This document shows, piece after piece, positions 8,714 through 41,025 of a stretch of DNA of 64,000 nt. Each line of letters opens with the position of its first letter. The stretch's first letter is position 1. Source of the DNA: a virus (taxonomy: Duplodnaviria; Caudoviricetes); the IMG/VR virus record IMGVR_UViG_3300017589_000168, positions 1-64,000 of that record; one strand, written 5' to 3'. The notes below the pieces were generated by a model. It worked only from the letters and a program-made list of their open reading frames with translations, was not told the origin of the DNA and ran no database searches. Both the position numbers and the translations under genes were made by a program.

Positions 8714-11061
8714 GTGCGACATGAAGTCGCCTGATTTAACTGTCTGGCATTGTGACCAGACCAACTTTTCCGTAAGTTGAGCCTAATATCAACTGCATTG
8801 CTGGTAACGGCGGTGTGGTAAGCTGATATGAAAATGTAGCCCTATTTGGAGGCGAAGCCGTGAGGCAGAGCCGAAACTGTTAGCACAATACGGTTAGGGA
8901 GCAGGCTTGATAGTATGGTTAACGTAAGTGAACTACTGATAAACGTCGTTAAGGCGAACAGGTCAAAGTTGCTGATAGACCTGAACCAAAATGGTATGCA
9001 GTCGGATAATCCTTTCCATAGTGGGATTACACGGACACAAGACTGCCGGCGGAGAGGTAGAACCTAAACTATCATTGTTAATCAGGTGGAACATGGTAAG
9101 CCCGTACTGTTGCTTTTAGCAAAGCAGACTGTAAGGAATGCCGATAACAGTGCGGGTACAGGAAAACGGAAAAAGCGAATGCCATTTTGTAATGAGATGG
9201 ATAGGAGTTTCAATGTTACTCCACACGAAAGTGGGCAGACTTCCGTTCGGTTTCTAATCACAAGATAATTTACAGAATTTTGAAAGGAGAAAGCAAATGA
9301 ACATGAAAATGTGTGCTACTTCTGACGTGGCTATGCAATGGGAAAGCATTGACTGGAACAAAGCCGACCGCTACGTTAAAAACCTGCAAATGCGTATTGT
9401 GAAAGCATTTCAGGAGGGCAAGAAAAACAAAGTGAAATCACTGCAGCACTTGCTCACTACCTCTTTTTATGCTAAAGCATTGGCAGTAAAAAGAGTCACA
9501 GAAAATCAAGGCAAAAAGACAGCAGGGGTTGACGGAGAAATCTGGACAACACCAAAGGACAAATATCAGGCAATAGAAAGGTTACAACGCAGAGGTTACA
9601 ACCCAATGCCGTTAAAAAGGGTATATATCCCCAAGAAAAATGGCAAGAAAAGACCTTTGAGCATTCCGACCATGACAGACAGAGCCATGCAGACTTTATA
9701 TAAGTTTGCATTAGAGCCGATTGCAGAAACCACCGCCGACCCCAACTCTTATGGGTTTCGAGCGAAAAGATGTACGCAAGACGCTATTGAACAATGCTTT
9801 ACCAGTCTGAATAAAGGTAAATCTCCAAAATGGGTGCTTGAGGGAGATATAAAGGGTTGCTTTGACAACATTAGGCACGAATGGATACTGGAACACATCC
9901 CTATGGACAAGGAAATACTGCAAAAATGGCTCAAATGCGGATATATTGAAACCAAGAAACTATTTCCGACAGAGTTCGGAAGTCCGCAGGGTTCGCCGAT
10001 TTCACCGACTATCAGCAACATGGTACTTGATGGCTTGGAAAAGGTAATCAAGAATAAATACCACAAGCATAAGGTGAATGGAAAGGCATATTTTCCAAAG
10101 GTTAATTTTGTCCGTTACGCTGATGACTTTATCGTCACAGGAGAAAGCAGAGAAATTCTTGAAAACGGTGTAAAGCCCATTATCATTGAGTTTCTCGCTG
10201 AAAGAGGTTTGGAATTGTCAGAGGAAAAGACACTGATTACCCACATCAATGACGGTTTCGACTTCTTAGGCTGTAATGTCAGGATGTATGGAAATAAACT
10301 CTTGACCAAGCCCTCTAAGAAAAACTTTGAAGCGATAGTCAGAAAAATCAGGGATGTCATCAAAAGTAACCAGTCAGCAAAGCAGGACTTCTTGATTAGA
10401 AAGCTCAATCCTATCATTCGGGGTTGGGTAAATTATCAGAAGTATAACGTATCTGCACAAGCCTTTGAAAAGCTTGATTATGAAATTTGGCAATGCCTGT
10501 GGCAATGGTGCAAAAGACGGCACCCCAAGAAAAGTCGGAAATGGATTGCAAAGAAATATTTCCACACAATCGGAAATCGGACATGGACTTTTAGCGTTCC
10601 GACTGACGGTAAAATGGAAAATGGCGAAGATTACTATATCCGCTTGATTTACGCAACAGATACAGACATCAAGAGATTTACAAAAATTAAAGCGGACGCA
10701 AATCCATTCGATGAAAATTGGCAGTTGTATTTTGAAGAAAGAGCCGACAAGCAGATGAGGAATGAAATCAAGGGAAGAACCATCATAAATAGGCTGTACA
10801 AAGCCCAACAGGGTTGTTGCAGTCATTGTGGCGGTAAAATCACTCTTGAAACAGATTTCCAAATCCACCAAGTTGGTAATGGAAAGAATATGACAAAAAG
10901 TCTTGTACACCCTGAGTGCCACCAAAAACTCCATGCCTTGGCAAAATGTGAAATGCTGGCTCTCGAAGGAGAGTTTATAGAAGCTTGAGCCGTGTGAGGG
11001 GAAACTCTCATGCACGGTTCTTAGGGGGGAAGGTGGCAGTAATGCCGCCGACCTACCCGAC
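8714..11061 (+). mobile_element. Group II intron (IIB, CL1-like) inserted in phase 0 in the helicase gene
   Basis: Starts GTGCG; domain V GAGCCGTGTGAGGGGAAACTCTCATGCACGGTTC at 10987-11020; ends ...CCCGAC; removal restores FDAYLW|QILEQKQRYISQIMT; EBS1/EBS2 match the exon. Confidence 0.95.
9297..10988 (+). CDS. ltrA: Group II intron reverse transcriptase/maturase with a degenerate HNH domain
   Basis: RVYIPKKNGKKRPL, EGDIKGCFD, PQGSPISP, RYADDF, GFDFLG; C-terminal CSHC...HPECH. Confidence 0.95.
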   Translation: MNMKMCATSDVAMQWESIDWNKADRYVKNLQMRIVKAFQEGKKNKVKSLQHLLTTSFYAKALAVKRVTENQGKKTAGVDGEIWTTPKDKYQAIERLQRRGYNPMPLKRVYIPKKNGKKRPLSIPTMTDRAMQTLYKFALEPIAETTADPNSYGFRAKRCTQDAIEQCFTSLNKGKSPKWVLEGDIKGCFDNIRHEWILEHIPMDKEILQKWLKCGYIETKKLFPTEFGSPQGSPISPTISNMVLDGLEKVIKNKYHKHKVNGKAYFPKVNFVRYADDFIVTGESREILENGVKPIIIEFLAERGLELSEEKTLITHINDGFDFLGCNVRMYGNKLLTKPSKKNFEAIVRKIRDVIKSNQSAKQDFLIRKLNPIIRGWVNYQKYNVSAQAFEKLDYEIWQCLWQWCKRRHPKKSRKWIAKKYFHTIGNRTWTFSVPTDGKMENGEDYYIRLIYATDTDIKRFTKIKADANPFDENWQLYFEERADKQMRNEIKGRTIINRLYKAQQGCCSHCGGKITLETDFQIHQVGNGKNMTKSLVHPECHQKLHALAKCEMLALEGEFIEA

Positions 11062-26978: not shown

Positions 26979-27662
26979 TTGAAAATGGTGTATATCGCCA
27001 GTCCTCTGCGCGGGGACTACAACACCAATATAAAAAACGCTGTGGAATACTGCCGACTTGCCGCGGAGAAAGGCGTACTTCCCCTTGCGCCCCACATTAT
27101 TTTCAGCCAGTGGTGCAATGACACCATTCCGGAACAGAGGGAACAGGGCTTGAGCCTTGGTCTTGCTTTGCTTCAAAAAGCAGACGAACTGTGGGTGATG
27201 GGAACTACCTTCAGCCAAGGTATGCAGGGTGAGGTGGGATTTGCACAGGAACATGGGATACCGATGTTTTTTGTAACACACCCCCATGACCTGAATTACT
27301 ACCCGGTCAGTGCCGACGAAAATCGGCTTTTGTCCAAGTTAGACTGTGTTACTGAAAGCAGTCGGGAGAGTTACAAGGATCAGCTTGTGGTGCTGCGGCA
27401 TGAACATCTGAGGCCGGAATATCGTACCTCACGGAATCAGGTGTGGCTTGTGACTCACGGCCCCGGCTGCCGACCGGATTATGTTCATAGCGATACCATC
27501 CATCTAACACATCCTGTGGACGGCGACCGCATGGCGGTTCGTCGCGGTGATGTGTGGGGCGTTCCAAAGCCTGAGATGATGGACTGTATCAGGCAGGCTT
27601 ATCCTGAATTTGATGCCGCTTTGCAGTCAGCCGCAGAACCGGAGGGGGATCTTTGCCAATGA
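26979..27662 (+). CDS. DUF4406/nucleoside 2-deoxyribosyltransferase-like domain protein
   Basis: VYIASPLRG...PLAPH...ADELWV...SQGMQGE. Confidence 0.7.
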   Translation: MKMVYIASPLRGDYNTNIKNAVEYCRLAAEKGVLPLAPHIIFSQWCNDTIPEQREQGLSLGLALLQKADELWVMGTTFSQGMQGEVGFAQEHGIPMFFVTHPHDLNYYPVSADENRLLSKLDCVTESSRESYKDQLVVLRHEHLRPEYRTSRNQVWLVTHGPGCRPDYVHSDTIHLTHPVDGDRMAVRRGDVWGVPKPEMMDCIRQAYPEFDAALQSAAEPEGDLCQ

Positions 27663-29932
27663 AGAAAAAGGAAAAGCTCATATTAGGTGCGGTCATTCTC
27701 GGTATCGGCACAATATTCAACCTGTTCTTTACCGCTGCCCTGCATGGCCTGCTGTCACGAAAATTGTCTGCCCTGTCACTCATTCCCTTATGGGACTGCG
27801 TGGCAGGGCTTTTTCTTTACCGTCAGCAGCTTCTATTGTTTTTGTCCTTTGAGGGATTTATCTGCCTGTGCAGCGTCCTCTTTTGGGTACAGAACAACCG
27901 CCCCTATCAAAGTGAACTTGTGCGGGTGGCCGAGGACATTTATACGCCTGCATCGGTAGGACAGTATCAGCATGGCTCGGCCCGGTGGCTGCGGGAAGAA
28001 GAAAAAGGAAAAGTGTTTGGAACACAGGTCATCCATCCGGTAAATCCCCTTATTCGTAAGCTGTTGGATACCGGCTTTGATGATCTGCCGTTTATGCAGA
28101 AGAACGAAAAAAAGACAAATCACTTCAATCAAGCGGAAATCGGGCAAGACACGGCGGCACAGGACGAACACACCGCACCGCCCGATTCTGTAAACCCAAA
28201 GGAAGAAAAGGAGGAATTGATACAGGATGAGGACTTTGAAACTGTGGATTATGACCTTGCGGCTGCGCATTTAACCAAAGCACAGACACAGGATACCCCA
28301 CCTGCACCACAGGATAAATCGGAGAAAGAAAAGAAAGACCCCTACAAGCTGTTTGATGAGGGCGGCATCGTGGTAGGCACGGAGAAAATCAGAGCCAAAG
28401 AGCTTGGGGCGCCGTCCGAACGGCTTTACTACATTCCCGATGATACCCATACCTTGACCATCGGCGCCACCCGTTCAGGAAAGACACGGTGCCTTGTCAT
28501 CCAGTCCATCTGCCTGCTGGGGCTTGCCGGGGAAAGCCTTGTCATCAGTGACCCCAAGGCCGAGTTGTTCCACTACACATCGGTATTTCTTAAAAAGCTG
28601 GGCTATGAGGTAATCTGTCTGGATTTTAAGAACCCCGAAAAAAGCACCCGATACAATCTCCTTCAGCCAGTTATCGACGCGGTAAATAAGGGGGATATGG
28701 AACGGGCGGAAATGTATGCGTGGGATATTACAAATATCCTTGTGGGAGATGATGTTTCCAACGAGAAGATTTGGGAAAACGGTGAGAAATCCACCATAGC
28801 GGCGGCGATTCTCTGCGTGGTGGTGGACAACAAAAAGCGGCCGGAGTATCAGAACCTGACCAATGTGTACTGGTTTATTGCGGAAATGAGTAAATCCGTG
28901 GGCGGCAAAACCCCTATGAGCGAGTACATGAAAAAACTGCCCAGTGCTCATCCGGCACGGGCGCTTATGTCAATTGCCGAGGTTGCGCCAAGCCGCACCA
29001 AGGGCAGCTTCGACACCTCGGCGCTGACTACCCTGCGTCTGTTTACCAGCCGTTCGGTCTATTCCGTTACCCACAAGAGCGACTATAACATCTCGGAGAT
29101 CGGACAGAAAAAGCAGGCTCTGTTTATGATTTTGCCGGACGAGAAAACGACCTATTATCCTATCGCCAGTCTGATGGTATCCCAGCTTTATGAGTTGCTG
29201 GTCCGTCAATCAGATCAGCGGGGCGGCAGGCTGGAGCGCCGGGTCAATTTTGTGCTTGATGAATTTGGAAATTTTACAAAATTGAGTGATTTTCCAAACA
29301 AACTGACAGTGGCAGGCGGACGGGGGTGCAGATTTAACCTCTATCTGCAATCCTTTGAACAACTTTCCCTAAAATACGACAAAGAAACGGCGGCCATCGT
29401 TAAGTCCAACTGTCAGACATGGATATACCTACAAGCGGACGATAAGGAAACCTTACAGGAGGTGTGCGATAAGCTGGGCAAGTACACCACCAGCGCCTAT
29501 CAGCTTTCCAGCCAGCACGGGAGGTATGTCAACCCGTCCAGCTCCCACAGCATCAGCCTTGTAGCAAGGGAGCTTTTGACCACAGATGAAATCCGCAGAA
29601 TCCAGCGGCCGGCTCAAATCGTTATCAGCCGTTCCCATCCGGCTATGATGAACGCCCCCGATCTGTCACAGTGGTATTTTAATCAGATGTGCGGATTGGG
29701 AGGCAAGGAGCATAACCGCCTGGTTCGGGAAGCGAGAGAAGCAGCCCGGCCGGTTTTATCCAACATGACAGGCGATATTCCCCTGTGGAACATATGGGTG
29801 TATTACGCCAAGGACTTGCAGATGAAAGAAGCCCAGCAGAAGTCACAGGCTTTTGCTTCTCAGATGGGTGCGATTTTTTCAGAAAAAGGCTTTCGGAAAG
29901 GAGGAACAAGTAAAGATGAAGATGACGATTAA
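27659..29932 (+). CDS. virD4: VirD4/TraG type IV coupling protein
   Basis: Two N-terminal TMs; IGATRSGKT Walker A; ISDPKAEL; FVLDEFGN Walker B; LQSFEQL. Confidence 0.93.
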   Translation: MKKKEKLILGAVILGIGTIFNLFFTAALHGLLSRKLSALSLIPLWDCVAGLFLYRQQLLLFLSFEGFICLCSVLFWVQNNRPYQSELVRVAEDIYTPASVGQYQHGSARWLREEEKGKVFGTQVIHPVNPLIRKLLDTGFDDLPFMQKNEKKTNHFNQAEIGQDTAAQDEHTAPPDSVNPKEEKEELIQDEDFETVDYDLAAAHLTKAQTQDTPPAPQDKSEKEKKDPYKLFDEGGIVVGTEKIRAKELGAPSERLYYIPDDTHTLTIGATRSGKTRCLVIQSICLLGLAGESLVISDPKAELFHYTSVFLKKLGYEVICLDFKNPEKSTRYNLLQPVIDAVNKGDMERAEMYAWDITNILVGDDVSNEKIWENGEKSTIAAAILCVVVDNKKRPEYQNLTNVYWFIAEMSKSVGGKTPMSEYMKKLPSAHPARALMSIAEVAPSRTKGSFDTSALTTLRLFTSRSVYSVTHKSDYNISEIGQKKQALFMILPDEKTTYYPIASLMVSQLYELLVRQSDQRGGRLERRVNFVLDEFGNFTKLSDFPNKLTVAGGRGCRFNLYLQSFEQLSLKYDKETAAIVKSNCQTWIYLQADDKETLQEVCDKLGKYTTSAYQLSSQHGRYVNPSSSHSISLVARELLTTDEIRRIQRPAQIVISRSHPAMMNAPDLSQWYFNQMCGLGGKEHNRLVREAREAARPVLSNMTGDIPLWNIWVYYAKDLQMKEAQQKSQAFASQMGAIFSEKGFRKGGTSKDEDDD

Positions 29933-31008: not shown

Positions 31009-31065
31009 ACGATGTGCAGCAAACGCCCTGCGGGATCTCCCGCAGGGCAAGGAGGTGAAAATCAC

Positions 31066-31908
31066 TTGGAGATAATCCTTGTACTGCTCATCGTAGCGGT
31101 GTTAAACGGTGCGGTAGCTTTTATAGATGAAATGCTTTCCGACCTCGTTCCCATGACCTTAAACGCCGACCAGTATATGATCGCCGCAGGCGGCGGCAGT
31201 ATGGTATCTGTGCTGTTTGACATCCTGCTGGGCTTTGGTGTGTCCCTGATTATCCTGAAGTTTCTGAAAAAAGGATTTGAGTGCTATGTCATGTGGACGG
31301 ACGGCGACCCGGATGTGGAGCCGGTCCACCTCGTTATCCGCTTTATTCAGGCCATAGCAGTAGCGGTCTGTTTTCCGGTCATGTACGGCTGGCTTGCAGA
31401 AATCACCCAAAACCTGACGGATGAACTAATGGCCGCTATCGGTGCCGCCACCAATTATAACTGGCAGGCATGGGTAAACGGTCTTAGCTCCCTTGGACTG
31501 GTAACGGCGATTTTCGGTCTGATTTTCGTGGTCTGCTACTTTGTGCTGTATTTCCAGTTTTTAATGCGCGGGCTTGAAATCATGATTCTGCGCATTGGTC
31601 TGCCACTTGCCTGCGTGGGACTTTTGGACAATGACAAGGGCGTGTTCAAGACCTATATCAATAAGTTTTTTCAGTCCACCCTTGCCGTAGTCGTACAGAT
31701 ATGCCTATGCAAACTGGGAGTCGGCATGATGATGAACGTAGGCATCAACATGAATATCTTTTGGGGAATTGCCTGTATCGTGCTTGCCATCAAGACTCCT
31801 CGTTTCCTCAGTGAATTTATGGTTCCCGCAGGCGGCGGTGCCGGTATGATTAACAATGTATATCACTCTGTCAGGCTGGTTGGCATGGCAAAGGGCATGA
31901 TCAAGTAA
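31066..31908 (+). CDS. VirB6/TrbL-like polytopic membrane protein
   Basis: Multiple TM helices; R.LEI.ILR.G.PLA.VG motif; TTG start after GGAGGTG. Confidence 0.75.
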   Translation: MEIILVLLIVAVLNGAVAFIDEMLSDLVPMTLNADQYMIAAGGGSMVSVLFDILLGFGVSLIILKFLKKGFECYVMWTDGDPDVEPVHLVIRFIQAIAVAVCFPVMYGWLAEITQNLTDELMAAIGAATNYNWQAWVNGLSSLGLVTAIFGLIFVVCYFVLYFQFLMRGLEIMILRIGLPLACVGLLDNDKGVFKTYINKFFQSTLAVVVQICLCKLGVGMMMNVGINMNIFWGIACIVLAIKTPRFLSEFMVPAGGGAGMINNVYHSVRLVGMAKGMIK

Positions 31909-31924: not shown

Positions 31925-32137
31925 ATGATAACTCTTGACGATATTTCCATGGCGGTCATTGCCCTCATTCGCCTTGGTGCTGTGTTTCGCTTTGTTTACT
32001 GCATGGTACAGTTGCAGGGCGCCGAGGAAGAACAGGCGAGGTACAAAAAACGGGCAAAAAATACCGTAGTGTTCTATGTGATTGCCGAGTGCATCTGGCA
32101 GATCAAAGAGATTATTTTTTTCTACTATGGGGCGTAG
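31925..32137 (+). CDS. Small 2-TM protein, second VirB2-like paralog
   Basis: Same architecture as 29916..30278 (TM, AEEE..KK, TM, YY). Confidence 0.55.
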   Translation: MITLDDISMAVIALIRLGAVFRFVYCMVQLQGAEEEQARYKKRAKNTVVFYVIAECIWQIKEIIFFYYGA

Positions 32138-32153
32138 AGAGAGTTACTAAATG

Positions 32154-32212
32154 CCTGACGGATACGGTTATACAAGTGCAACTATATCTGTCAGGTGCTT
32201 TTGTATTTTTTA
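32154..32212 (+). terminator. Hairpin and T-rich tract upstream of the cargo gene
   Basis: CCTGACGGATA/TATCTGTCAGG stem, followed by GCTTTTGTATTTTTT. Confidence 0.45.
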
Positions 32213-32216
32213 AGTA

Positions 32217-32245
32217 TTGACATCCCTTGCCATTTGCTGTAAACT
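32217..32245 (+). promoter_or_regulatory. SigA promoter of the HTH-GTPase gene
   Basis: TTGACA-17 bp-TAAACT. Confidence 0.75.
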
Positions 32246-32309
32246 ATGTTCACAATCATGTGAATTAAGTTAACAAAGAAGTGAATATGATTAACAGGAG
32301 GGTGTTGGC

Positions 32310-34130
32310 ATGATTATTGAAAAAGAATTGTTGGCATTAAGTGACGTAGCAAAATTGTGTGGGACTAGCAACAGCAACGTTTCAAATTGGAGAACCCGTG
32401 ACTCAAAGTTCCCTGCTCCTTATACAGAGACGTCTGCTGGTCCGATATGGAAAGCAGAGGATATTGTTACATATCTCCAAAAGAAATTTGATGATGAGTA
32501 CGATGTGATTTCAACAGGTAACATATCCTCAAAGCGCATGGCAATAATAGGACGAGCACGAGGTGGAAAGTCGTTCTTTAATTCAAGATTTGTCTTTGAT
32601 CGAACAGGATTTGTTGCTTTATTTTGTGGAAATAACAGCGATAAAACCGCTTGCCCGATATATATAAAAATCTCAGAGTATATTACATTGGAGAATTTTA
32701 TATTCCATTCAGATTTCAATAGTATTTATCAGGCAGATGATGAAGATAACGAACTTAAGACATTAAAAGAGAAAGTATCAGCACTGGTTGATCACTCATA
32801 TTTACAGGATGACATCGAAAAGATGAATGAAATTGAGGGTATCATTAGGGAAATTAGAACCGTAGAAGAGCGATACCCAAATCGAAGGAACAGTAACACA
32901 TATATTGATACGTTTCAAAGACCAAGTGCTTTTTGTAAGGAGATTCTCAGAATATGTGGTCTTGGAAGCATTGAGATTGTTGATACACCGGGTGTTTCGG
33001 GTAATGTAGAGGCATCCAAAATTGCCAAATCTGATATTTATTTATTTTTACTAAAGCCAGACAATGGCGATGAATCACAGACAATACGGAAAATTGTAAC
33101 AGAGATTAAAGCAGATGTTGCAACCAGCAAAGCAGTCTTTTTGTATAAGAAAGAAGGGGTGTTTCTTACAAAGAAGAAGTATGATGACGCACGGTTAGCA
33201 GTACGCAGAGATATGGCTGCGTATAGCGAGCTGTTTAAGGATCTTAAAGGAAATATTATTTCTACAGAATTGGATGTTTTGGATCCAGCAAGTCACTGCA
33301 TCCTTTTTCCCACAATGGATCCGGATGAAATTATTCTTCCAGAAGAATTGTTTCTTGAAGAAATAAAAGAAAAGTTGTTGGAAGCGTTTAAGCCAGAAGA
33401 TCCAAGCAGTAAAGACGAAGCATTCAAAAGTATAATTTCAGAACTTGGAGTACAGGCAGAGGAATTTATGCTGAATATCATGAGGAATATTCCAAAGCAT
33501 AAACTTGGTGTGGGTGAGAATAAATACTCTGTCGAACAGGTAATTACGGGACAGCATGATAGAGTTATGACAAAAGATAATTACAGGTTTCATAACGATC
33601 TAGATCATGCATATGCTAGCGAAAGTAGGATCTTGGACAATTACTTTTCATCTTTTAAAGCTACAGAATATCCAGAAGAATGGAAACAGATTATAATCAA
33701 GTATGTGCATAAAAAGTTGACAGCTAGCGTTAGAGCAGACCGTGGGTTGGGTGTTGGAACGCATCCTTGGGAAGAAAGACCTGCTAGAACGATGTTGATT
33801 GAAGAGTCAATTTTGGCTGATAGAATTCTTGCTAATATCCTAGATAAGGATGAGAGGAACAGAAATGCACCATACAGAAAAGCATTGATAGATAGTAATA
33901 TCACCAGTGCAACATGGAATTATGTGGGGTGTGTAAATGAGGATGATGCAGTTACAAAGCTGAAAATAGTTGAGGAATGCCTGTTAAACGTTAGTGTGTC
34001 ATCTCGTCAAGAAATGGTATTGTGTAGATATGTGGGTGGACTTCGTAAAATCGCACAGTATAAAATCCTTCAAAATATAGGTTATAAAAAGGATAAGTGC
34101 ATGGAGGAAATAAAAAAAATGCCATTCTAA
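32310..34130 (+). CDS. AT-rich cargo: N-terminal HTH fused to a dynamin-like P-loop GTPase
   Basis: HTH LSDVAKLCGTSNSNVSNWR; G1 GRARGGKS, G2-like KTACP, G3 DTPG; helical C-terminus. Confidence 0.75.
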   Translation: MIIEKELLALSDVAKLCGTSNSNVSNWRTRDSKFPAPYTETSAGPIWKAEDIVTYLQKKFDDEYDVISTGNISSKRMAIIGRARGGKSFFNSRFVFDRTGFVALFCGNNSDKTACPIYIKISEYITLENFIFHSDFNSIYQADDEDNELKTLKEKVSALVDHSYLQDDIEKMNEIEGIIREIRTVEERYPNRRNSNTYIDTFQRPSAFCKEILRICGLGSIEIVDTPGVSGNVEASKIAKSDIYLFLLKPDNGDESQTIRKIVTEIKADVATSKAVFLYKKEGVFLTKKKYDDARLAVRRDMAAYSELFKDLKGNIISTELDVLDPASHCILFPTMDPDEIILPEELFLEEIKEKLLEAFKPEDPSSKDEAFKSIISELGVQAEEFMLNIMRNIPKHKLGVGENKYSVEQVITGQHDRVMTKDNYRFHNDLDHAYASESRILDNYFSSFKATEYPEEWKQIIIKYVHKKLTASVRADRGLGVGTHPWEERPARTMLIEESILADRILANILDKDERNRNAPYRKALIDSNITSATWNYVGCVNEDDAVTKLKIVEECLLNVSVSSRQEMVLCRYVGGLRKIAQYKILQNIGYKKDKCMEEIKKMPF

Positions 34131-34191
34131 ATTTTAAACAACAATTTTTAATGTATGCACTCTATATCAGGATGCATCAGTGTTGTGAAAG

Positions 34192-34233
34192 CTCCTTTGA
34201 GGCCATGGACTTGTGCTTCAAAGGAGTCTTTTT
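34192..34233 (+). terminator. Terminator of the cargo gene
   Basis: 12-bp stem CTCCTTTGAGGC/GCTTCAAAGGAG followed by TCTTTTT. Confidence 0.65.
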
Positions 34234-34267
34234 ATATATAAAAAATCAAGGAAAGGAGGTTCTCTAT

Positions 34268-34591
34268 GTGTTAAACGAAATCAATCTGTATATCCCCACC
34301 GGAGTCAAGGCTGAAAATGAGCTATTTAACGGCTTTGGTAAACGGGAACTGATGCAAAGCGTCATCGGCTCCCTGTTCGGCGGTGCGGTGGCTGCCCTTT
34401 TATGGCTGATTGCCGGAAATGTGGCATTGACCGTAGTGGCAGTCTTATCCGGCATTTTCGGCTCGGTAATGATGTGTACGAAAGACCAGAACAATCAAAG
34501 TGTGGTAGACCAAATCCGGGATATGATACGGTTTTGGCGCAGCCAGCAGATTTACCCCTACCGTATGGGGGATGAGTGGGGTATGAAGTAA
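34268..34591 (+). CDS. PrgI/VirB3-like small membrane protein
   Basis: YIP..VKAE.ELF.GFG..EL, two TMs; SD AAGGAGG before GTG. Confidence 0.6.
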   Translation: MLNEINLYIPTGVKAENELFNGFGKRELMQSVIGSLFGGAVAALLWLIAGNVALTVVAVLSGIFGSVMMCTKDQNNQSVVDQIRDMIRFWRSQQIYPYRMGDEWGMK

Positions 34592-34604: not shown

Positions 34605-36314
34605 TTGACATTTCTTGACCTTTTTTCAGGGATCGGCGGATTCCGTAGAGGTCTCGAAAGAAGCGGACATACCTGTGTGGGTCATGTCGAAATTGATAAA
34701 TACGCAAACAAGAGCTATATGGCAATGTACGAGCTTGCGCCCTGCCCTTACCGGGAGGATGCAGGCTCTAATTTTTCTATGATGTGTAAACCGGAGGTGA
34801 GGAAAAACTGTGACGGAACAAACTGTAAAGGCGAATGGTACGCCAAAGACATTAAGCAAATCCGAGCAGGAGAAATTCCAAAAGCTGAAATCTGGACTTT
34901 TGGATTTCCTTGCACTGACATTTCCATCGCAGGCCGAATGGAAGGTCTTAGAGGAAGCCGAAGCGGACTGTTTTTTACAGTCGTTGGCCTGCTCAAAAGC
35001 ACGAATCCCGAAGATCGACCCCAGCAGCTTATCGTTGAAAATGTTAAGCATCTTTTGTCAAGCGAGCGGGGCGGGGCATTTACCACTGTTCTTACTGAAT
35101 TATGGGAAGCTGGGTATGACTGTGAATGGCAGGCCGTCAATTCAAAAGACTTCTTCGTCCCCCAGAACCGGGAGCGGGTGTACCTTGTTGGACATTTTGG
35201 AGGAAACCGTGGACGAAAAGTATTTCCTATCGGCGGAGCAAACACAGCGCCTGTTAAGCAGCTTATCGGGGGAAGCCAAGGAAAACGGGTCTATGACATA
35301 AGCGGTGTTTCCGTCACCCTGACGGCAGAGGGCGGCGGCTTTGCCGGACGCACGGGGCTTTATGCTGTGTCGGTCAACCGAAGGGAGGGTATTACAGGCG
35401 CTATCAGCCATGCCCATACCTTGACCGCCAGTGATTTTAGGGGATTGAACCGAAATCAGGATCAGAATGCCGTGCTTTCAGAAATTCCGCCTTGTGAGGC
35501 GTTCACCGCCTTCAATCAGGATATCAGGCGGAGTAGTCATGTGGGAGGTATTGTCTGCTTGGGCAATACCAATCCGAGCGGCAATGGTATGAATGGAAAC
35601 GTATACGACACGCACGGCCTTTCGCCAACACTCACGACGAATAAGGGGGAGGAATTAAAGGTCGCCGTTCCCGCACAAGTCCAGACCTGTGCCGCTTTTA
35701 TTGATATGAATGAGGATGCGGAGCTGACGGAAAATGCCCGGTGCATCCGGGCAAGACAATATTCAGGTATCGGCAACCACCGGGGGGAAACCTCCGGCAT
35801 TTTTTTATGCCATGGGCACCCGGACTGCGTGATGGCGGTCATCACCCCCGACCGCATGGAAAAGCGCCAGAACGGCAGGCGGTTCAAAGAACCGGGAGAA
35901 CCCAGCTTTACGCTGACAACACAGGATCAGCACGGTATTTTGCTGTGCTGCTGTGAAGGGTGGAAAGATGGACTTCCTATCCGTGAGGATAAAAAAGACG
36001 GCCATACAATGGCATACCCCGGTGATGGAATCAATCTGGCTTATCCAAACAGCAAGAAAAGCAGAGGGCGTGTCGGCCGCCAGTGTTCCCAAACTTTGAT
36101 GACAGGCGGCAGCATGGGCGTTCTTCTGTGCTGTCGTATCCGCAGGCTGACACCGAGGGAGTGCTGGAGGCTTCAAGCCTTTGAAGATTACCTGTTTGAC
36201 CGTGTGAAAGCTGCCGGTATCAGCGACGCCCAGCTTTACCGGCAGGCGGGCAATGCCGTGACCGTCAATATTGTCTATGAAATTGGCCTGCGGCTGCCGG
36301 GAGGTAGACGATGA
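34605..36314 (+). CDS. Orphan DNA (cytosine-5) methyltransferase with a long multi-TRD variable region
   Basis: FSGIGG, GFPC, ENV, PQNRERVY, RRLTPRECWRLQ, YRQAGNAV. Confidence 0.93.
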   Translation: MTFLDLFSGIGGFRRGLERSGHTCVGHVEIDKYANKSYMAMYELAPCPYREDAGSNFSMMCKPEVRKNCDGTNCKGEWYAKDIKQIRAGEIPKAEIWTFGFPCTDISIAGRMEGLRGSRSGLFFTVVGLLKSTNPEDRPQQLIVENVKHLLSSERGGAFTTVLTELWEAGYDCEWQAVNSKDFFVPQNRERVYLVGHFGGNRGRKVFPIGGANTAPVKQLIGGSQGKRVYDISGVSVTLTAEGGGFAGRTGLYAVSVNRREGITGAISHAHTLTASDFRGLNRNQDQNAVLSEIPPCEAFTAFNQDIRRSSHVGGIVCLGNTNPSGNGMNGNVYDTHGLSPTLTTNKGEELKVAVPAQVQTCAAFIDMNEDAELTENARCIRARQYSGIGNHRGETSGIFLCHGHPDCVMAVITPDRMEKRQNGRRFKEPGEPSFTLTTQDQHGILLCCCEGWKDGLPIREDKKDGHTMAYPGDGINLAYPNSKKSRGRVGRQCSQTLMTGGSMGVLLCCRIRRLTPRECWRLQAFEDYLFDRVKAAGISDAQLYRQAGNAVTVNIVYEIGLRLPGGRR

Positions 36315-36901
36315 GGTTTGGTGTCCTGTATGTAGACCCGCCCTGGTCCTATAAGGTCTATTCCAGAAAGGGGCAGGGGCGCAGTGCTGAAAATCACTAT
36401 TCCACCATGAGCGCTGAGGATATTTACAATCTTGATGTGGATGGGATCGCAGATGATGACTGTGTTCTATTCTTATGGGTCACATTCCCTTGTCTGCTGG
36501 AGGGCTTGGAAGCAATCAGGCGCTGGGGCTTTACCTATAAAACCCTCGGTTTTTGCTGGGTCAAGCGGTGCAAAAAACAAACGGAAAAATGGTTTTGGGG
36601 ATTGGGATTCTGGACAAGAGCCAACCCCGAACTGTGCCTGATTGCCACCAAAGGCAGACCGAAACGGTTATCAAAGGCGGTTCACTGCATTGTAGATACG
36701 CCGGTGGAGCGCCACAGCAAAAAGCCGGACGAGGTACGCCGCCGCATTGAACAGCTTATGGGGGATATTCCCCGTGCGGAACTGTTCGCAAGACAGCAGT
36801 ATGATGGCTGGGTCTGCCTTGGAAATGAAATTGACGGCCTTGATATTCGGGAGGCAATAAAGCAAGTAAAGGCGGTGGATAACCTGAATGGCATGGAATG
36901 A
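36311..36901 (+). CDS. MT-A70 family adenine methyltransferase
   Basis: VDPPW, LFLWVT, HSKKP, ELFAR. Confidence 0.9.
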   Translation: MRFGVLYVDPPWSYKVYSRKGQGRSAENHYSTMSAEDIYNLDVDGIADDDCVLFLWVTFPCLLEGLEAIRRWGFTYKTLGFCWVKRCKKQTEKWFWGLGFWTRANPELCLIATKGRPKRLSKAVHCIVDTPVERHSKKPDEVRRRIEQLMGDIPRAELFARQQYDGWVCLGNEIDGLDIREAIKQVKAVDNLNGME

Positions 36902-37451
36902 ACACCTAAATAGTTTTCTGGCCTGCGTCCTGCTTGCCTTTTTTGTCGGCTGGCTGTGTGATATGACCATCCGAAAAATCATAAAGAAAGACACGGCCTT
37001 TACCGCCCATATCTTTACGGCGGTAGCGGCTGTTTTTCTTGCCCTATATGGTTTTACGCCCACGGCACTTCGCTGTATCCTGCTGTGCGGGGTGCTGATT
37101 GTGGCAGGTGTGTTTGACCTTGCCACCTATGAAATCCCTGATTCCCTGCATCTGCTCATTGCTATGGCGGGGTTAGTACACTTCCAACCCCTGCCCGCAT
37201 TTTTGGGTTTCCTGCTGGTTCCCCTGCCATTTCTGATTGCCGCCCTGAAAACAGAAAAAATCGGTGGCGGTGATGTAAAGCTGATGGCGGCCAGCGGCTT
37301 TGCCCTCGGTGTGACAGGGGGTGTCTGGATGATGATATGGGGGCTTGTGGCTGCTCTGCTCTGGAATCGTGCTTTTTGCAGAGAGCAAAAGAGCCTTCCC
37401 CTTGCGCCCTTTCTTGCCTTTGGGTGCTTTATGGCGCTTTTCCCAACTTAA
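36888..37451 (+). CDS. A24 prepilin peptidase (TadV/CpaA-like)
   Basis: DLATYEIPD and GGGDVKL aspartate motifs; P.APFL. Confidence 0.9.
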   Translation: MAWNEHLNSFLACVLLAFFVGWLCDMTIRKIIKKDTAFTAHIFTAVAAVFLALYGFTPTALRCILLCGVLIVAGVFDLATYEIPDSLHLLIAMAGLVHFQPLPAFLGFLLVPLPFLIAALKTEKIGGGDVKLMAASGFALGVTGGVWMMIWGLVAALLWNRAFCREQKSLPLAPFLAFGCFMALFPT

Positions 37452-37476
37452 ATTTTGATATGGAGGAAAAAACAAA

Positions 37477-38328
37477 ATGAAAAACCTACTGAAAAACCGA
37501 ATTGTCGTGGGGCTGCTGTGTATCATCACAGCCCTGCTCATCTGCTTTGGACTGACGCCCATGTTCAACGATGCTCTCAAATCCAAGGTGGAGCTGGTGC
37601 GTGTTACCACTGAAATCAAAAAGGGCGATCAGATTACTGCAGGGCAGATTTCTACCGTAGAAGCAGGCGGCTATAATCTGCCCTTTGATGTGGTGTATAA
37701 AAAAGAGGATGTCATCGGCAAATACGCCAATGCTGACCTCTACAAAGGTGATTACATCCTGAAAACCAAGCTGTCCGACACACCTATGCTGAAAAATGAG
37801 TATTTAAGCAAACTCAATGGAGAGAACAGAGCCATTTCCATTACCATCAAGAGTTTTGCGGCAGGGCTTTCCGGCAAGCTGGAGCGCGGCGACATTGTTT
37901 CCCTGATTGCCAGTGATGTGGGAGAGGCCCGTAAAACGCTGATTCCCACGGAACTGCAATATGTTGAAATCATTGCAGCTACCGACAGCAGCGGCAACGA
38001 CCGCAACCTTCAGGAGCAGCCCAAAGACGACAGAGATACAGAGCTTGCCAGCACCATTACCGTTCTTGCCACTCCCGAACAGGCAACGCTTCTTGCTGAA
38101 CTGGAGCAGACCGGAAAGCTCCATGCTGCCCTTGTGTATCGTGGGAGTGCGGAAAATGCACAGAAGTTCTTGGATGAGCAGATGAAGGTGCTGGAGGCCC
38201 TTTATCCTGTGAAAAGCGAGGGGTTGACCTATGAAAGCGAAGATAACCATAGCGCGGGGGCATCGCCTGCCGGTATTTCTTCCGATGACACAGCGGAAAG
38301 CGGTACAGAATCCGCAGGGCAGGAATAA
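37477..38328 (+). CDS. cpaB: Flp pilus assembly protein CpaB/RcpC
   Basis: N-terminal TM, SAF-like domain, GLSGKL..GD.V, T.LATPEQA. Confidence 0.85.
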   Translation: MKNLLKNRIVVGLLCIITALLICFGLTPMFNDALKSKVELVRVTTEIKKGDQITAGQISTVEAGGYNLPFDVVYKKEDVIGKYANADLYKGDYILKTKLSDTPMLKNEYLSKLNGENRAISITIKSFAAGLSGKLERGDIVSLIASDVGEARKTLIPTELQYVEIIAATDSSGNDRNLQEQPKDDRDTELASTITVLATPEQATLLAELEQTGKLHAALVYRGSAENAQKFLDEQMKVLEALYPVKSEGLTYESEDNHSAGASPAGISSDDTAESGTESAGQE

Positions 38329-38348
38329 GGAATGGAGGGCAAAATTTT

Positions 38349-39212
38349 ATGATAAAAGATAAGATGATTGCCGTCATGGGCAGTCCGGGCAGCGGGAAAA
38401 CCATCGCTGCCCTTAAACTTGCCCTGACGCTTTCGGCGGCAAAAAAGAATGTCATTGTGGTATTCTGCGATCCGTTTACACCGGTCATTCCCACAGTCCT
38501 GCCTGCCGATACGAACCACGACACTTCGCTGGGCAGTCTTTTGACGTCTCCGGCACTGACACAGGCCAAGCTCCTGAATGCCTGCGTGCCGACAGAAAAG
38601 AACGAATACATCAGCTTTTTGGGATACCGGGCTGGAGAAAGCCTGATGCGGTATCCGCAAATCACACGGGATAAGGCAGTAGAGTTTTTTATCCTGCTTC
38701 GGTATCTGGCCGATTATGTCATCATCGACTGTACCTCTGCATTTGAAGCTGACCCGGCCTCCATTGTGGCGATAGAGCTTGCCGACAAGGTTTTAAGGCT
38801 GGGGACAGCCAACTTAAAAGGCGTTTCCTATTATCTGACCCATAATCCCATGCTGGCGGACAGCCGTTTCCGAACGGACACCCATCAGACCGTAATCGGC
38901 AACCTGAAAGCAGGGCAGGATTGGGAGTCTGCCGCCCAGCAATACGGCGGCACGGATTTTGTGCTGCCCTATGTACCGGAACTGGAGCAGCAGTATGATG
39001 AACTGGCATTGCTGACCCCGCTGGCCCAGCCGGAAAGCACCGGATATACCGCTGGAGTGGAACGGCTTTTGGGAATACACGCAGTGAAATCCAAGACAAG
39101 GTCTGCTTCACCCGCTGCGGCAACGGACACAGAGGGCGCAAAGCAGAAAGAAAAGCAAAAAGCAAAACCGGCTTTTCGATTGCCCTTTGCAAAAAACCGG
39201 GGTGAGTTTTAG
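38349..39212 (+). CDS. CpaE/TadZ-like MinD/ParA ATPase
   Basis: GSPGSGKT, YVIIDC; lies between cpaB and cpaF. Confidence 0.75.
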   Translation: MIKDKMIAVMGSPGSGKTIAALKLALTLSAAKKNVIVVFCDPFTPVIPTVLPADTNHDTSLGSLLTSPALTQAKLLNACVPTEKNEYISFLGYRAGESLMRYPQITRDKAVEFFILLRYLADYVIIDCTSAFEADPASIVAIELADKVLRLGTANLKGVSYYLTHNPMLADSRFRTDTHQTVIGNLKAGQDWESAAQQYGGTDFVLPYVPELEQQYDELALLTPLAQPESTGYTAGVERLLGIHAVKSKTRSASPAAATDTEGAKQKEKQKAKPAFRLPFAKNRGEF

Positions 39213-39685
39213 TGCTCACCATCAGCCATATAGAACTGAACGATGCCAATGCCTATGTGACGGCACATCACCGGCATCACGGAGCTGTGCGGGGACACCG
39301 ATTTTCTCTTGCCTGTTTCGAGGATAGCAGGCTGTGCGGTGTCGCTATTGTGGGCAGACCGCGCTCCCGCCGTATTGACCAGTGTATGACTGTGGAGGTT
39401 CTGCGGCTCTGTACGGACGGCACGAGGAACGCCTGCTCTAAACTATACGGAGCCTGCCGCCGTGCGGCAAAGGCGCTGGGCTATCAGCGGCTCATTACCT
39501 ATATTTTAGCGGAGGAAAACGGCAAAAGTCTTTTGGCAAGCGGGTTTTCCTACTGCTATACCAGCAAGGGCGGTAGCTGGAACCAACCGGGCAGACCGAG
39601 AACCGATAAGGCTCCAGTCTGCCCGAAGTATTTGTATGAAATTATACTGGTCCGAAAGGAGGACAAAACTTGCAGAACATCTTAA
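39212..39685 (+). CDS. XF1762-like GNAT-fold protein
   Basis: HHRHH.AV.GH.FS, GVAIVGRP, EVLRLCTDG..NACS.LYGA, TY.L.EE.G.SL. Confidence 0.7.
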   Translation: MLTISHIELNDANAYVTAHHRHHGAVRGHRFSLACFEDSRLCGVAIVGRPRSRRIDQCMTVEVLRLCTDGTRNACSKLYGACRRAAKALGYQRLITYILAEENGKSLLASGFSYCYTSKGGSWNQPGRPRTDKAPVCPKYLYEIILVRKEDKTCRTS

Positions 39686-41025
39686 ATATCCATGATAACG
39701 CCGGACTGATGGGTGGGGAAATCCATCTGCGCCCTTTTGCCGAGGTTTTGAGGGAAGTACAGGAACACATCAGCAAAAATTATGCAGGAACCCTAAAGGA
39801 TGACCCCGACCAGAGCCGTGCTCTGATTCACAGCTACATCCGAAAATACCTTGAAGAACAGCGGCTTGGTGTGGACGGCATGGAGCAGGGGGAGCTTGCC
39901 GAGCTTCTGTACGGAGAAATGACCGGATTTTCATTCCTGTCCAAATACCTCTACCGCAATGATGTGGAGGAAGTGAATATCAACCAGTGGGATGATGTGA
40001 AGGTCATTTACGCAAACGGCGAGGTGCTGCCCACCAAGGAACGGTTTACCTCACCCCAGCACGCCCTTGATGTCATCAAGCGTATGCTGCATAAGTCCGG
40101 CATGATACTCGATAATGCCAAACCCTATGTCATTGGGCATCTGTCCAACAAAATCCGTATTACGGCTACCTCTCCGGGTATCGTGGACGAGGACAAGGGT
40201 TTGTCTGTATCCATTCGTATCGTCAATCCCCGCAAGCTGAAAAAAGAGGAATTTGTCACTTATGGCACAGCCACCGCCGAGATGCTGGATATGCTCTCGG
40301 TGTTTTTTAATTATGGCGTTTCCATGTGTATGACCGGAGCCACTTCCTCCGGCAAAACCACTTTGATGAGCTGGATACTCGACCAGATTTCAAATGATAA
40401 GCGGCTAATTACCATTGAAAAGGGCTGCCGTGAGTTCGACAGCGTGAAGCGTGACGAGCTGGGCAGGGTCCTGAATAATGTCATTCACTTTATTACCAAG
40501 GAGTCCGACGATCCCAAACAGGTGGTATCCATGGTAAAGCTCTTGGAACTGGCCCTTACTATGCACCCGGATTTTCTGGTGGTTGCGGAGATGAAAAGCG
40601 AGGAAAGCCTGCAAGCAATTAAGGCGGCCAATACCGGGCATACCTCTTTGACCACCATTCACGCCAACGGCTGTGAGGACACCTATTACCGCATGGCGGC
40701 ACTCTGCAAGGAAAGCAGTTCCATGGATGACGCCACCCTGATGGGGCTTGCTACAAGGGGTTTTCCCATCGTGGCCTTTGCCAAGAAGCTGGAGGACAAC
40801 AGCCGCCGCCTGATGGAAATTGCCGAGTGCGTGGGAGTAAAAGCCGGTGTGCCGATTATGCGCACCTTGTACCGCTTTAACATCACCGACAACCGCATGG
40901 AAAACGGAAAAGCCAAGATCATAGGGCATTATGAAAAAGTAAACGGTCCATCAGAAAGCCTGTGCAAGCGGCTTCGTGAAAACGGTATGCCGCTGTCCTT
41001 GCAGCAGCGGCTTTTAAGTGCATAA
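39670..41025 (+). CDS. cpaF: CpaF/TadA pilus assembly ATPase
   Basis: GATSSGKTT, ITIEK..E, MHPD...V.EM, TTIHAN. Confidence 0.9.
   Translation: MQNILNIHDNAGLMGGEIHLRPFAEVLREVQEHISKNYAGTLKDDPDQSRALIHSYIRKYLEEQRLGVDGMEQGELAELLYGEMTGFSFLSKYLYRNDVEEVNINQWDDVKVIYANGEVLPTKERFTSPQHALDVIKRMLHKSGMILDNAKPYVIGHLSNKIRITATSPGIVDEDKGLSVSIRIVNPRKLKKEEFVTYGTATAEMLDMLSVFFNYGVSMCMTGATSSGKTTLMSWILDQISNDKRLITIEKGCREFDSVKRDELGRVLNNVIHFITKESDDPKQVVSMVKLLELALTMHPDFLVVAEMKSEESLQAIKAANTGHTSLTTIHANGCEDTYYRMAALCKESSSMDDATLMGLATRGFPIVAFAKKLEDNSRRLMEIAECVGVKAGVPIMRTLYRFNITDNRMENGKAKIIGHYEKVNGPSESLCKRLRENGMPLSLQQRLLSA

What the first reader, a model, noticed from the sequence alone, without database searches (positions are those of the whole stretch)
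32217..34233. Self-contained AT-rich HTH-dynamin-like GTPase cassette inside the transfer operon: candidate single-gene defence or exclusion system
The gene is visibly more AT-rich than its flanks, has its own consensus promoter and terminator, and has no partner gene. An excisionase/AlpA-like HTH (SNVSNWRTRDSKFPAP) is fused to G1/G2/G3 GTPase motifs, followed by a long helical region with no clear TM or canonical G4. Dynamin-like GTPases act in anti-phage and anti-plasmid defence (for example Eleos/Leo), but I do not recognise this HTH fusion as a described system.
Basis: partly seen in the sequence, partly recalled or inferred. Interest (0 to 1): 0.7.

Follow-up and report, generated by a model that had tools for sequence, protein, structure and literature searches.

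The report
Self-regulated HTH–dynamin-like GTPase cassette
A 2.1-kb self-contained gene cassette, recently dropped into a conjugative element's transfer operon, encodes an uncharacterised DNA-binding, dynamin-like GTPase that travels alone between phages, conjugative elements and defence islands and is a credible but untested candidate for a new single-gene immunity or exclusion system.

Summary
Window 32137-34273 is a discrete AT-rich insert (37% GC against 50% in the flanks). It lies between a T4SS pilin gene and prgI. A sister element lacks it, and so do near-identical "empty-site" contigs from two metagenome studies.

The insert carries, in order:
- an upstream insulating hairpin;
- a near-consensus promoter;
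- a palindromic operator (TTCACA-N4-TGTGAA);
- one 606-aa ORF;
- a terminator.

The protein has three parts: an excisionase-type winged HTH, a TRAFAC GTPase domain closest in fold to mitofusin/BDLP/IniA with no canonical G4, and a confidently folded 267-aa all-helical C-terminal domain with no solved relative.

No Pfam, NCBIfam or PADLOC family covers the protein. The family is rare, with 8 loci among 185,579 species genomes. It is always solitary and keeps its P-loop.

Homologues lie in conjugative elements, phages and islands. In 6 of 16 contexts a known defence system lies within 10 kb (AbiL, Drt4, SpbK, RM, Leo-like).

The hairpin, promoter and operator travel with the gene, which argues that its own HTH regulates it. 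One metatranscriptome covers the gene but not the flanking T4SS genes.

Defence or exclusion is the best reading (about 0.55) but is untested. The cassette is not a member of Eleos. The scan also noted this same stretch in another window; no prior finding on other DNA.

The parts
32137..34273 (+). Whole inserted cassette (2137 nt). In empty-site variants 20 other letters stand in its place.
   Evidence: Contigs from two DNA runs of different studies join 32136 to 34274. Sister element L027 has only about 50 nt between the pilin stop and prgI. GC 0.37 against 0.50 in the flanks.
32150..32213 (+). Upstream hairpin (CCTGACGGATA...TATCTGTCAGG) with a U-rich tail. Terminator-like insulator at the 5' edge of the cassette.
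   Evidence: RNA fold -24.5 kcal/mol, z -3.98, 0 of 200 shuffles as good. The same CCTGAC/GTCAGG hairpin stands upstream of the homologues in L016 and in a Coprococcus phage.
32217..32245 (+). Sigma-70/SigA-type promoter TTGACA-17-TAAACT.
   Evidence: 10 of 12 matches. TTGACA plus TATATT/TATTAT-type promoters sit at the same place in homologous loci.
32249..32264 (.). Palindromic operator TTCACAATCATGTGAA, directly after the -10 hexamer.
   Evidence: The only match in the 64-kb window, with 0 expected from shuffles. The same TTCACA-N4-5-TGTGAA lies 45-65 nt upstream of the homologues in L004, L006, L016 and L019 and in the phage L035.
32269..32295 (.). Second set of half-sites (GTTAAC ... GTGAAT ... 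ATTAAC) between the operator and the RBS.
   Evidence: Read from the sequence. Recurs in homologous loci. More distant homologues (L007, L010) carry GTTAAC/GTTAAT iterons instead.
32310..34130 (+). ORF of 606 aa (P0001). RBS AGGAGG at 32296-32301.
   Evidence: 177 homologue clusters at 90% identity and 156 representatives at 50%.
32310..32495 (+). Residues 1-62: excisionase/MerR-type winged HTH (HTH_17-like).
   Evidence: Weak hits to PDC-M06B (5e-6), the N terminus of MTase_I, and phrog_66 excisionase. Relatives of this module carry Pfam HTH_17 and are fused to N6_Mtase, ParA-like ATPases, Ogg and Mrr_N. Model topology is strand-helix-helix-strand-strand-helix.
32526..33329 (+). Residues 73-340: TRAFAC GTPase domain of dynamin/mitofusin/BDLP type. 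G1 at 81-88, T113, G3 at 225-228, no canonical G4.
   Evidence: All top Foldseek PDB matches are dynamin superfamily (IniA 4e-7, MFN, DynA, BDLP). VIA: MFN1 Z 14.9, rmsd 3.9, 219 aligned. MMR_HSR1 in 26 of 46 relatives and Dynamin_N in 4 of 46. P-loop kept in 166 of 173 relatives.
33327..34127 (+). Residues 340-606: compact all-helical C-terminal domain. The most conserved part of the family, with no solved relative.
   Evidence: AF2 pLDDT 96.5, pTM 0.89. Best VIA Z 4.8 against 48,161 chains and best Foldseek E 0.31. Invariant or near-invariant H416, R418, D423, E488, T494, E499, Y522, S533, W536, K550, Y574.
34189..34235 (+). Intrinsic terminator hairpin with a U-tract.
   Evidence: RNA fold -28.8 kcal/mol, z -4.4.
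34250..34270 (+). RBS (GGAAAGGAGG) and GTG start for the downstream prgI-like gene, supplied by the right end of the insert.
   Evidence: In empty-site contigs the 20-nt filler AGGAGGCGCAGTACATGAAC provides the RBS and ATG instead.

Best explanation
**Proposal.** This is an autoregulated, single-gene conflict module (anti-phage or anti-plasmid defence, or exclusion) that moves between mobile elements as a unit of hairpin, promoter, operator and ORF.

**Shown:**
- It is a recent 2.1-kb insertion, polymorphic among near-identical conjugative elements.
- It is transcriptionally insulated on both sides.
- It encodes a soluble protein of three domains: winged HTH, dynamin-like G domain and an unknown helical domain.
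- It has no conserved partner gene.
- The NTPase motifs are under purifying selection.
- Its homologues sit in conjugative elements, phages and defence islands.

**Inferred:**
1. The N-terminal HTH binds the palindromic operator that overlaps the transcription start and represses its own promoter. Expression therefore stays low but is independent of the host element.
2. The G domain binds GTP, or another NTP since G4 is missing, and dimerises or oligomerises as dynamin-superfamily proteins do.
3. Nucleotide-driven assembly repositions the conserved C-terminal domain. That domain is the effector or target-binding part, and it acts against an incoming phage or competing element. It does so either directly on the invader's DNA through the HTH, or by aborting the infected cell.

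Step 3 is the least supported.
For: **Insert and polymorphism**
- The sister element lacks the gene.
- Empty-site contigs occur in two studies.
- The cassette is 13 GC points below its flanks.

**Regulatory module conserved with the gene**
- The palindrome is unique in the window, with 0 expected by chance.
- It stands at the same place in L004, L006, L016, L019 and a Coprococcus phage.
- Distant relatives carry a different repeat type.
- DNA homology to L016 starts at 32146, which includes the hairpin.

**Expression**
- The metatranscriptome contigs all lie inside 32268-34123 and none lies on the T4SS flanks.
- In DNA from the same sample, the flanks are deeper than the cassette.

**Fold**
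- The G domain resembles dynamin-superfamily proteins.

**Selection**
- The P-loop is kept in 166 of 173 relatives and D[TS]xG in 162 of 173.

**Context**
- Neighbours within 10 kb include AbiLi/AbiLii, Drt4, AbiLi plus type I RM, SpbK plus a PifA-like protein, a Leo-like pair, and a C5-MTase/HNH/Vsr cluster.
- Homologues also lie in a prophage accessory region beside a RES toxin and in complete Coprococcus phage genomes.
- The family is solitary in every context.
- It is rare and patchy across Clostridia and Bacilli.

**Precedents**
- Two-gene dynamin-like Eleos defence and DynA (preprint 10.1101/2022.05.11.491447; PMC8844932).
Against:
- Only 6 of 16 contexts hold a known defence system. This is a small, hand-picked sample with no background rate computed.
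- One context is plain chromosome between tsf and small ORFs.
- PADLOC gives no whole-protein match.
- The C-terminal domain has no recognisable effector fold or catalytic motif.
- There is no membrane-binding element, unlike the characterised bacterial dynamins.
- Carriage by phages and by at least four conjugative elements, twice directly upstream of parA, also fits maintenance or counter-defence.
- Operator binding by the HTH is inferred from conservation only.
- The RNA evidence is contigs from one sample, without strand or level.
Confidence: 0.55

Rival explanations
1. A maintenance or competition factor of mobile elements, not host immunity. An HTH-NTPase binds iterated sites next to its own gene and helps stabilise, position or exclude DNA. 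The analogy is to type Ia ParA autoregulators or TubZ/TubR-type NTPase segregation.
For: - The same HTH module is fused to ParA-like ATPases.
- Homologues lie directly upstream of parA or parAB in two phage- or plasmid-like elements.
- Repeated operators or iterons stand upstream of the gene.
- At least four homologues lie within a few kb of a T4 coupling protein.
Against: - The G domain is TRAFAC/dynamin-like, not a ParA/MinD-type ATPase.
- There is no ParB- or TubR-like partner.
- The gene occurs in integrated islands and in plain chromosome, where partition is pointless.
- Near-identical elements exist without it.
Confidence: 0.15
2. A counter-defence or host-takeover gene carried by phages and conjugative elements. 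It would neutralise a recipient's immunity or remodel the recipient cell early after entry.
For: - In the window it sits next to two orphan-looking methyltransferases (C5 and MT-A70), a typical anti-restriction cargo.
- In Coprococcus phages and in L004 it lies in or beside the early replication region.
- It is found on several conjugative elements.
Against: - Counter-defence genes are rarely found in chromosomal defence islands beside AbiL, Drt4 or SpbK.
- At 606 aa, with an NTPase and its own autoregulated constitutive-type promoter, it is unlike most known small anti-defence proteins (established knowledge, not tested here).
- It is apparently expressed while the T4SS genes are silent.
Confidence: 0.12
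3. A GTP-sensing transcription factor. The HTH is the business end, and the GTPase and C-terminal domains only modulate DNA binding to regulate genes of the carrying element or host.
For: - Conserved operator-like palindromes stand at its own promoter.
- The protein is soluble, with no membrane or enzymatic effector signature.
Against: - The exact palindrome occurs only once in the 64-kb window, so no regulon is visible in the element.
- HTH-less variants keep the G and C-terminal domains, so these are the conserved core.
- Contexts share no common target genes.
Confidence: 0.1
4. A housekeeping or ribosome-associated GTPase (Era/Der/MMR_HSR1-like) that happens to lie in the element.
For: Weak MMR_HSR1 hits in relatives and weak PDB sequence hits to Der/EngA P-loops.
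Against: - Only 8 loci in 185,579 species genomes.
- Presence/absence polymorphism.
- Always in variable or mobile regions.
- The fold is closest to the dynamin superfamily.
Confidence: 0.02

Closest known systems
Eleos (LeoA/LeoBC) dynamin-like anti-phage system
   Same: A dynamin-superfamily GTPase found next to defence systems, in which P-loop integrity is expected to matter. A few distant relatives give weak LeoBC (6 of 46) or LeoA (2 of 46) PADLOC hits. One homologue lies 6 kb from a Leo-like pair.
   Different: [quoted passage not shown] Here there is one gene with no conserved neighbour, an N-terminal HTH, no recognisable stalk, and no PADLOC Leo hit for P0001 itself.
Bacterial dynamin-like proteins BDLP, DynA, IniA, and mitofusins
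   Same: Best structural matches for residues 68-362: Foldseek E 4e-7 to 5e-6, and VIA Z 12.3-14.9 over 203-231 residues. DynA also affects phage infection (PMC8844932, PMC12998192).
   Different: Those proteins act on membranes through paddle or TM regions and long neck/trunk helical bundles. P0001 has no hydrophobic segment and no canonical G4. Its C-terminal domain does not align significantly to any stalk or trunk (Z 4.8 or less), and it carries a DNA-binding domain.
SpbK of ICEBs1 (single-gene, element-borne abortive infection)
   Same: The concept is shared: one self-expressed cargo gene on an integrative conjugative element, not needed for transfer. A SpbK-like gene (3e-76) lies 4 kb from the Lacrimispora homologue.
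   Different: No sequence or domain relationship. SpbK is a TIR protein.
HTH-fused NTPase autoregulators such as type Ia ParA
   Same: An N-terminal HTH fused to an NTPase, with operator repeats at its own promoter. The same HTH module is found fused to ParA-like ATPases.
   Different: A different NTPase class (TRAFAC dynamin-like, not SIMIBI ParA) and no ParB or centromere partner.
SLIP-GC-like dynamins (Dynamin_N + DUF7605)
   Same: Language-model look-alikes for the whole protein and, weakly (0.85), for the C-terminal part. Both are soluble dynamin-like GTPases with a helical C-terminal domain.
   Different: A lead only. No alignment or E-value supports homology, and no Pfam DUF7605 hit appeared among 46 relatives at E 0.01 or better.

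Membership tests
Dynamin superfamily | Large (about 300 aa) GTPase domain with the dynamin-type fold | tested here: met
   All top Foldseek PDB and BFVD hits are dynamin-family proteins. VIA: MFN1 Z 14.9, rmsd 3.9, 219 aligned, against 160-170 aligned for small GTPases at Z 12-14. The margin over Rag/Era is small.
Dynamin superfamily | G1-G4 nucleotide-binding motifs | tested here: inconclusive
   G1 GRARGGKS, T113 and G3 DTPG are present and conserved. No [NT]KxD is present. The equivalent strand ends in the conserved YKKE at 279-282, so base specificity is uncertain.
Dynamin superfamily | Helical stalk, or neck/trunk bundle, that mediates assembly | tested here: inconclusive
   The C-terminal 267 aa are all-helical. 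The best matches to Mgm1, Drp1, dynamin and MxB stalks reach only Z 4.0-4.8, within noise.
Dynamin superfamily | Membrane-binding element and assembly-stimulated GTPase activity | not testable with these tools
   No TM or strongly hydrophobic segment.
Eleos (LeoA/LeoBC) | Two consecutive dynamin-like genes | tested here: not met
   Single gene. No shared neighbour within 3 kb in 16 loci. Definition taken.
Eleos (LeoA/LeoBC) | Match to the PADLOC LeoA, LeoB or LeoBC profiles | tested here: not met
   No Leo hit for P0001 at E 1 or better. Only 6 of 46 and 2 of 46 distant relatives give weak hits.
HTH_17 / excisionase (AlpA, MerR-type) winged HTH | Sequence match to the family profile | tested here: inconclusive
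   No Pfam HTH_17 hit for P0001. Weak hits to excisionase PHROGs (9e-4) and to PDC-M06B (5e-6). Proteins that share this module do match HTH_17 (5e-6 and 9e-11).
HTH_17 / excisionase (AlpA, MerR-type) winged HTH | Helix-turn-helix followed by a beta-hairpin wing and a C-terminal helix | tested here: met
   Model: strand 7-9, helix 10-16, helix 21-30, strands 39-41 and 44-48, helix 49-59. Small phage HTH proteins align to it with TM 0.54-0.82.
Type Ia ParA-like partition ATPase | Deviant Walker A ParA/MinD (SIMIBI) ATPase with a ParB partner | tested here: not met
   The G domain is TRAFAC/dynamin-like. There is no conserved partner.
Known PADLOC defence or candidate families (2023) | Whole-protein profile match | tested here: not met
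   Only the 56-residue HTH matches PDC-M06B and the N terminus of MTase_I.

The most novel reading that the evidence does not exclude
A one-polypeptide immune machine of a new kind: a DNA-binding dynamin-like GTPase. Its HTH both represses its own promoter and engages invading DNA. Nucleotide-driven assembly then deploys a C-terminal effector domain with a fold not yet seen in any solved structure. This would be a soluble bacterial counterpart of Mx-type antiviral dynamins that acts on nucleic acid rather than on membranes.
Probability: 0.2. Interest if true: 0.85.

Novelty: new variant of a known kind. Interest (0 to 1): 0.6.

Why it matters
Dynamin-like GTPases are antiviral in animals (Mx) and, as the two-gene Eleos system, in bacteria, yet how any of them stops a virus is unclear.

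This family offers a minimal, soluble, single-gene version that lends itself to genetics and structural work. It has a fused DNA-binding domain, a conserved operator and a new C-terminal fold.

The cassette also shows a complete expression-insulated module (terminator, promoter, operator, gene, terminator) moving between phages, conjugative elements and defence islands. It can sit inside a transfer operon while that operon's downstream gene keeps its ribosome-binding site and start codon.

If the function proves to be maintenance or counter-defence, the family would still be a new MGE cargo class with a new domain.

Tried and rejected
**Searches that failed or added nothing**
- The search for related loci with the wide alignment A2 failed because no stretch was conserved enough.
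- Scanning 79 neighbour proteins against PADLOC as one alignment returned only duplicate methyltransferase models and gave no usable summary.
- DNA search of PLSDB plasmids found no sister element; only the C5 methylase matched.
- Protein search of plasmids found one partial C-terminal match in a C. perfringens plasmid, not followed up.
- Complex prediction, intended for a homodimer of the C-terminal domain, was unavailable, so nothing can be said about self-association.

**C-terminal domain**
- Foldseek PDB gave a best E of 0.31. VIA against 48,161 chains gave a best Z of 4.8, with mixed stalk, Cas13 and eIF2B helical matches. No fold was assigned.
- An Rx6H (HEPN-like) string at R478-H485 was considered. 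R478 is not conserved in the wider family, so it was rejected.
- An HD-domain reading of H416-D417 was rejected because D417 varies.
- The Pfam DUF1139 hit (E 0.004, below the cut-off) occurs in one member only and was treated as chance.

**Other**
- Literature searches found no description of an HTH-dynamin single-gene system.
- Two distant members had contigs too short, or no DNA, for context.
- Parts of the cassette are uncovered by contigs in the runs laid. This is not read as absence.
Full report
**1. The observation**

- The ORF at 32310-34130 (+) encodes 606 aa.
- GC falls to 0.36-0.38 across it, from about 0.50 on both sides. The gene is 0.369 and the 10-kb flanks 0.502.
- A TTGACA-17-TAAACT promoter lies at 32217-32245, the best-scoring site in the region. 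An AGGAGG RBS follows 8 nt before the ATG.
- A strong hairpin with a U-tract lies at 34189-34235 (z -4.4).
- A second terminator-like hairpin sits at 32150-32213, upstream of the promoter (z -3.98).
- The flanking genes are transfer genes: T4 coupling protein (27653-29932), TrbL_4 (31012-31908), a small T4SS pilin (31925-32137) and a PrgI-like gene (34268-34591). These are followed by a C5 methylase, an MT-A70 methylase and Tad-type pilus genes.

**2. It is a discrete, recent insertion**

- A sister element, L027, has TrbL 84% and PrgI 80% identical. Its pilin stop is followed after about 50 nt by prgI, with no such gene between.
- Contigs from two DNA runs of different studies (wastewater and wetland) match the flanks at about 98%. 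They join window 32136 directly to 34274, with 20 other letters in between.
- The insert is therefore 32137-34273. Its right end provides a new RBS and GTG start for prgI.
- The window's record is filed as a virus in IMG/VR (87,470 b), but the window itself carries conjugation genes.

**3. The protein**

No Pfam, NCBIfam, PHROG or PADLOC family covers it. An AlphaFold model built from 31 relatives has pLDDT 80.9.

- *Residues 1-62* form a winged HTH of the excisionase/MerR type.
  - The module gives weak hits to PDC-M06B and to the N terminus of some type I methylases.
  - Its relatives are fused to N6_Mtase, ParA-like ATPases, Ogg and Mrr_N, some with a Pfam HTH_17 match.
- *Residues 73-340* form a TRAFAC GTPase domain.
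  - The top Foldseek matches in PDB and BFVD are all dynamin-family proteins: IniA, mitofusins, DynA, BDLP and giant-virus dynamins.
  - VIA gives MFN1 Z 14.9 over 219 residues. This is only slightly above Rag or Era GTPases, which align over 160-170 residues.
  - G1, T113 and G3 are present. There is no [NT]KxD.
- *Residues 340-606*, folded alone from 65 sequences, give pLDDT 96.5 and pTM 0.89.
  - They match nothing solved: best VIA Z 4.8 and best Foldseek E 0.31.
  - This is the most conserved part of the family, with a set of invariant polar residues.
- There is no TM segment.

**4. The family**

- There are 177 clusters at 90% identity and 156 representatives at 50%. All are unnamed, and the three-domain layout is kept down to about 20% identity. 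Some members lack the HTH.
- MMR_HSR1 is detected in 26 of 46 relatives and Dynamin_N in 4 of 46.
- The P-loop is kept in 166 of 173 relatives and D[TS]xG in 162 of 173.
- Only 8 loci were found in one genome each of 185,579 species. All are Clostridia or Bacilli.

**5. A conserved regulatory module**

- The palindrome TTCACAATCATGTGAA at 32249-32264 lies directly after the -10 hexamer. It is unique in the window, with none expected by chance.
- The same TTCACA-N4-5-TGTGAA lies 45-65 nt upstream of the homologues in L004, L006, L016 and L019.
- It also occurs in Coprococcus phage NatCom_24345, together with the CCTGAC/GTCAGG hairpin and a TTGACA-17-TATATT promoter.
- More distant homologues carry GTTAAC/GTTAAT iterons instead.
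- DNA homology to the Lacrimispora locus begins at 32146, so it includes the hairpin.
- I infer that the protein's own HTH binds this operator. This is not shown.

**6. Contexts**

There are 16 distinct contexts.

| Context type | Loci and neighbours |
|---|---|
| Conjugative elements | the window, L028, L031, L034 |
| Phage or phage-plasmid-like | L010 and L033 (next to parA; L033 also beside a RES toxin and after the lysis genes); L004 beside a phage-like replication module; two complete Coprococcus phage genomes |
| Chromosomal islands | L001 (AbiLi 8e-88 with AbiLii); L006 (Drt4 4e-125 directly downstream); L007 (smpB-adjacent, AbiLi-like plus type I RM); L016 (SpbK 3e-76, PifA-like KAP NTPase); L013 (integrase, NADAR) |
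| Plain chromosome | one site, between tsf and small ORFs (L002) |

- L028 also carries a Leo-like dynamin pair, and L004 an MTase/HNH/Vsr cluster.
- Known defence systems lie within 10 kb in 6 of 16 contexts.
- No neighbouring ORF is shared across loci.

**7. Expression**

- In a wastewater metatranscriptome, four contigs (0-2 differences) lie at 32268-32489, 32795-32991, 33413-33668 and 33935-34123. None lies on the T4SS flanks.
- In the DNA run of the same sample, the flanks are deeper (9.3) than the cassette (about 3).
- This fits transcription from the cassette's own promoter while the transfer genes are silent.
- It is one sample, and contigs give neither strand nor level.

**8. Interpretation**

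- The best reading (about 0.55) is an autoregulated, single-gene conflict module, defence or exclusion, carried as cargo by mobile elements. The NTPase acts as the switch and the novel C-terminal domain as the effector or assembly part.
- The rivals are:
  - a maintenance or partition-like role (0.15);
  - counter-defence (0.12);
  - a GTP-sensing regulator (0.10);
  - housekeeping (0.02).
- It works like a dynamin-superfamily GTPase in its G domain. The stalk and membrane features of that superfamily are not demonstrable.
- It fails the defining two-gene architecture and the profile match of Eleos.
- Literature searches found no description of this architecture.

**9. Verdict**

This is an unnamed family with a new domain combination and a new fold, plausibly a new variant of dynamin-type immunity, and it awaits a phenotype.

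Noticed in passing
window 32136/34274: Near-identical (about 98%) elements without the cassette exist in wastewater and wetland metagenomes. A 20-nt filler (AGGAGGCGCAGTACATGAAC) stands in its place and supplies the RBS and ATG of prgI. In the window, the insert's right end supplies a different RBS and a GTG start.
   Followed up: yes
window 34605-36901: A C5 cytosine methylase (569 aa) and an MT-A70 methylase (196 aa) sit inside the transfer region right after prgI. No restriction partner was seen in the ORFs examined. ORFs of similar size at the same position in sister element L027 (492 and 180 aa) were not compared. Probably anti-restriction cargo.
   Followed up: partly
window 36888-41025: A Tad/Flp-type pilus cluster is embedded in the conjugation region: A24 prepilin peptidase, RcpC/CpaB, a P-loop ATPase and a T2SSE ATPase. 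A similar T4CP plus T2SSE/T2SSF layout is seen in L028.
   Followed up: no
whole window (G000:C1): The 87,470-b record is filed as a virus in IMG/VR (linear, CheckV 82%). Yet the window carries a MobL-type relaxase, T4CP, TrbL, PrgI and surface adhesins, so it looks like a conjugative element. Possibly misclassified or a composite.
   Followed up: partly
window 32150-32213 and 34189-34235: Two terminator-like hairpins now interrupt what is a continuous pilin-prgI junction in sister elements. The insert could be polar on the downstream T4SS genes unless there is read-through or antitermination.
   Followed up: no
L022:8771-8952 and 8941-10588: An HTH-less family member (Acetatifactor MAG) is preceded by, and overlaps, a small ORF with CxxC...CxxC (zinc-ribbon-like) and an acidic tail. 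This may replace the fused HTH.
   Followed up: partly
L028:15623-21365: On another conjugative element that carries a homologue, the cargo region also holds an AIG1/IIGP-like GTPase, a WYL regulator and two consecutive Dynamin_N genes (Leo-like). This is a cluster of GTPase-based candidate defence genes.
   Followed up: partly
window 26979-27662; L004:13893-14324: DUF7768 proteins (nucleoside 2-deoxyribosyltransferase-like) occur both just upstream of the T4CP in the window and beside a phage-like replication module near another homologue.
   Followed up: no
L021, L023, L020: In three MAG loci the homologue is split into two ORFs. This is either a frameshift or decay, or an assembly error.
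   Followed up: no
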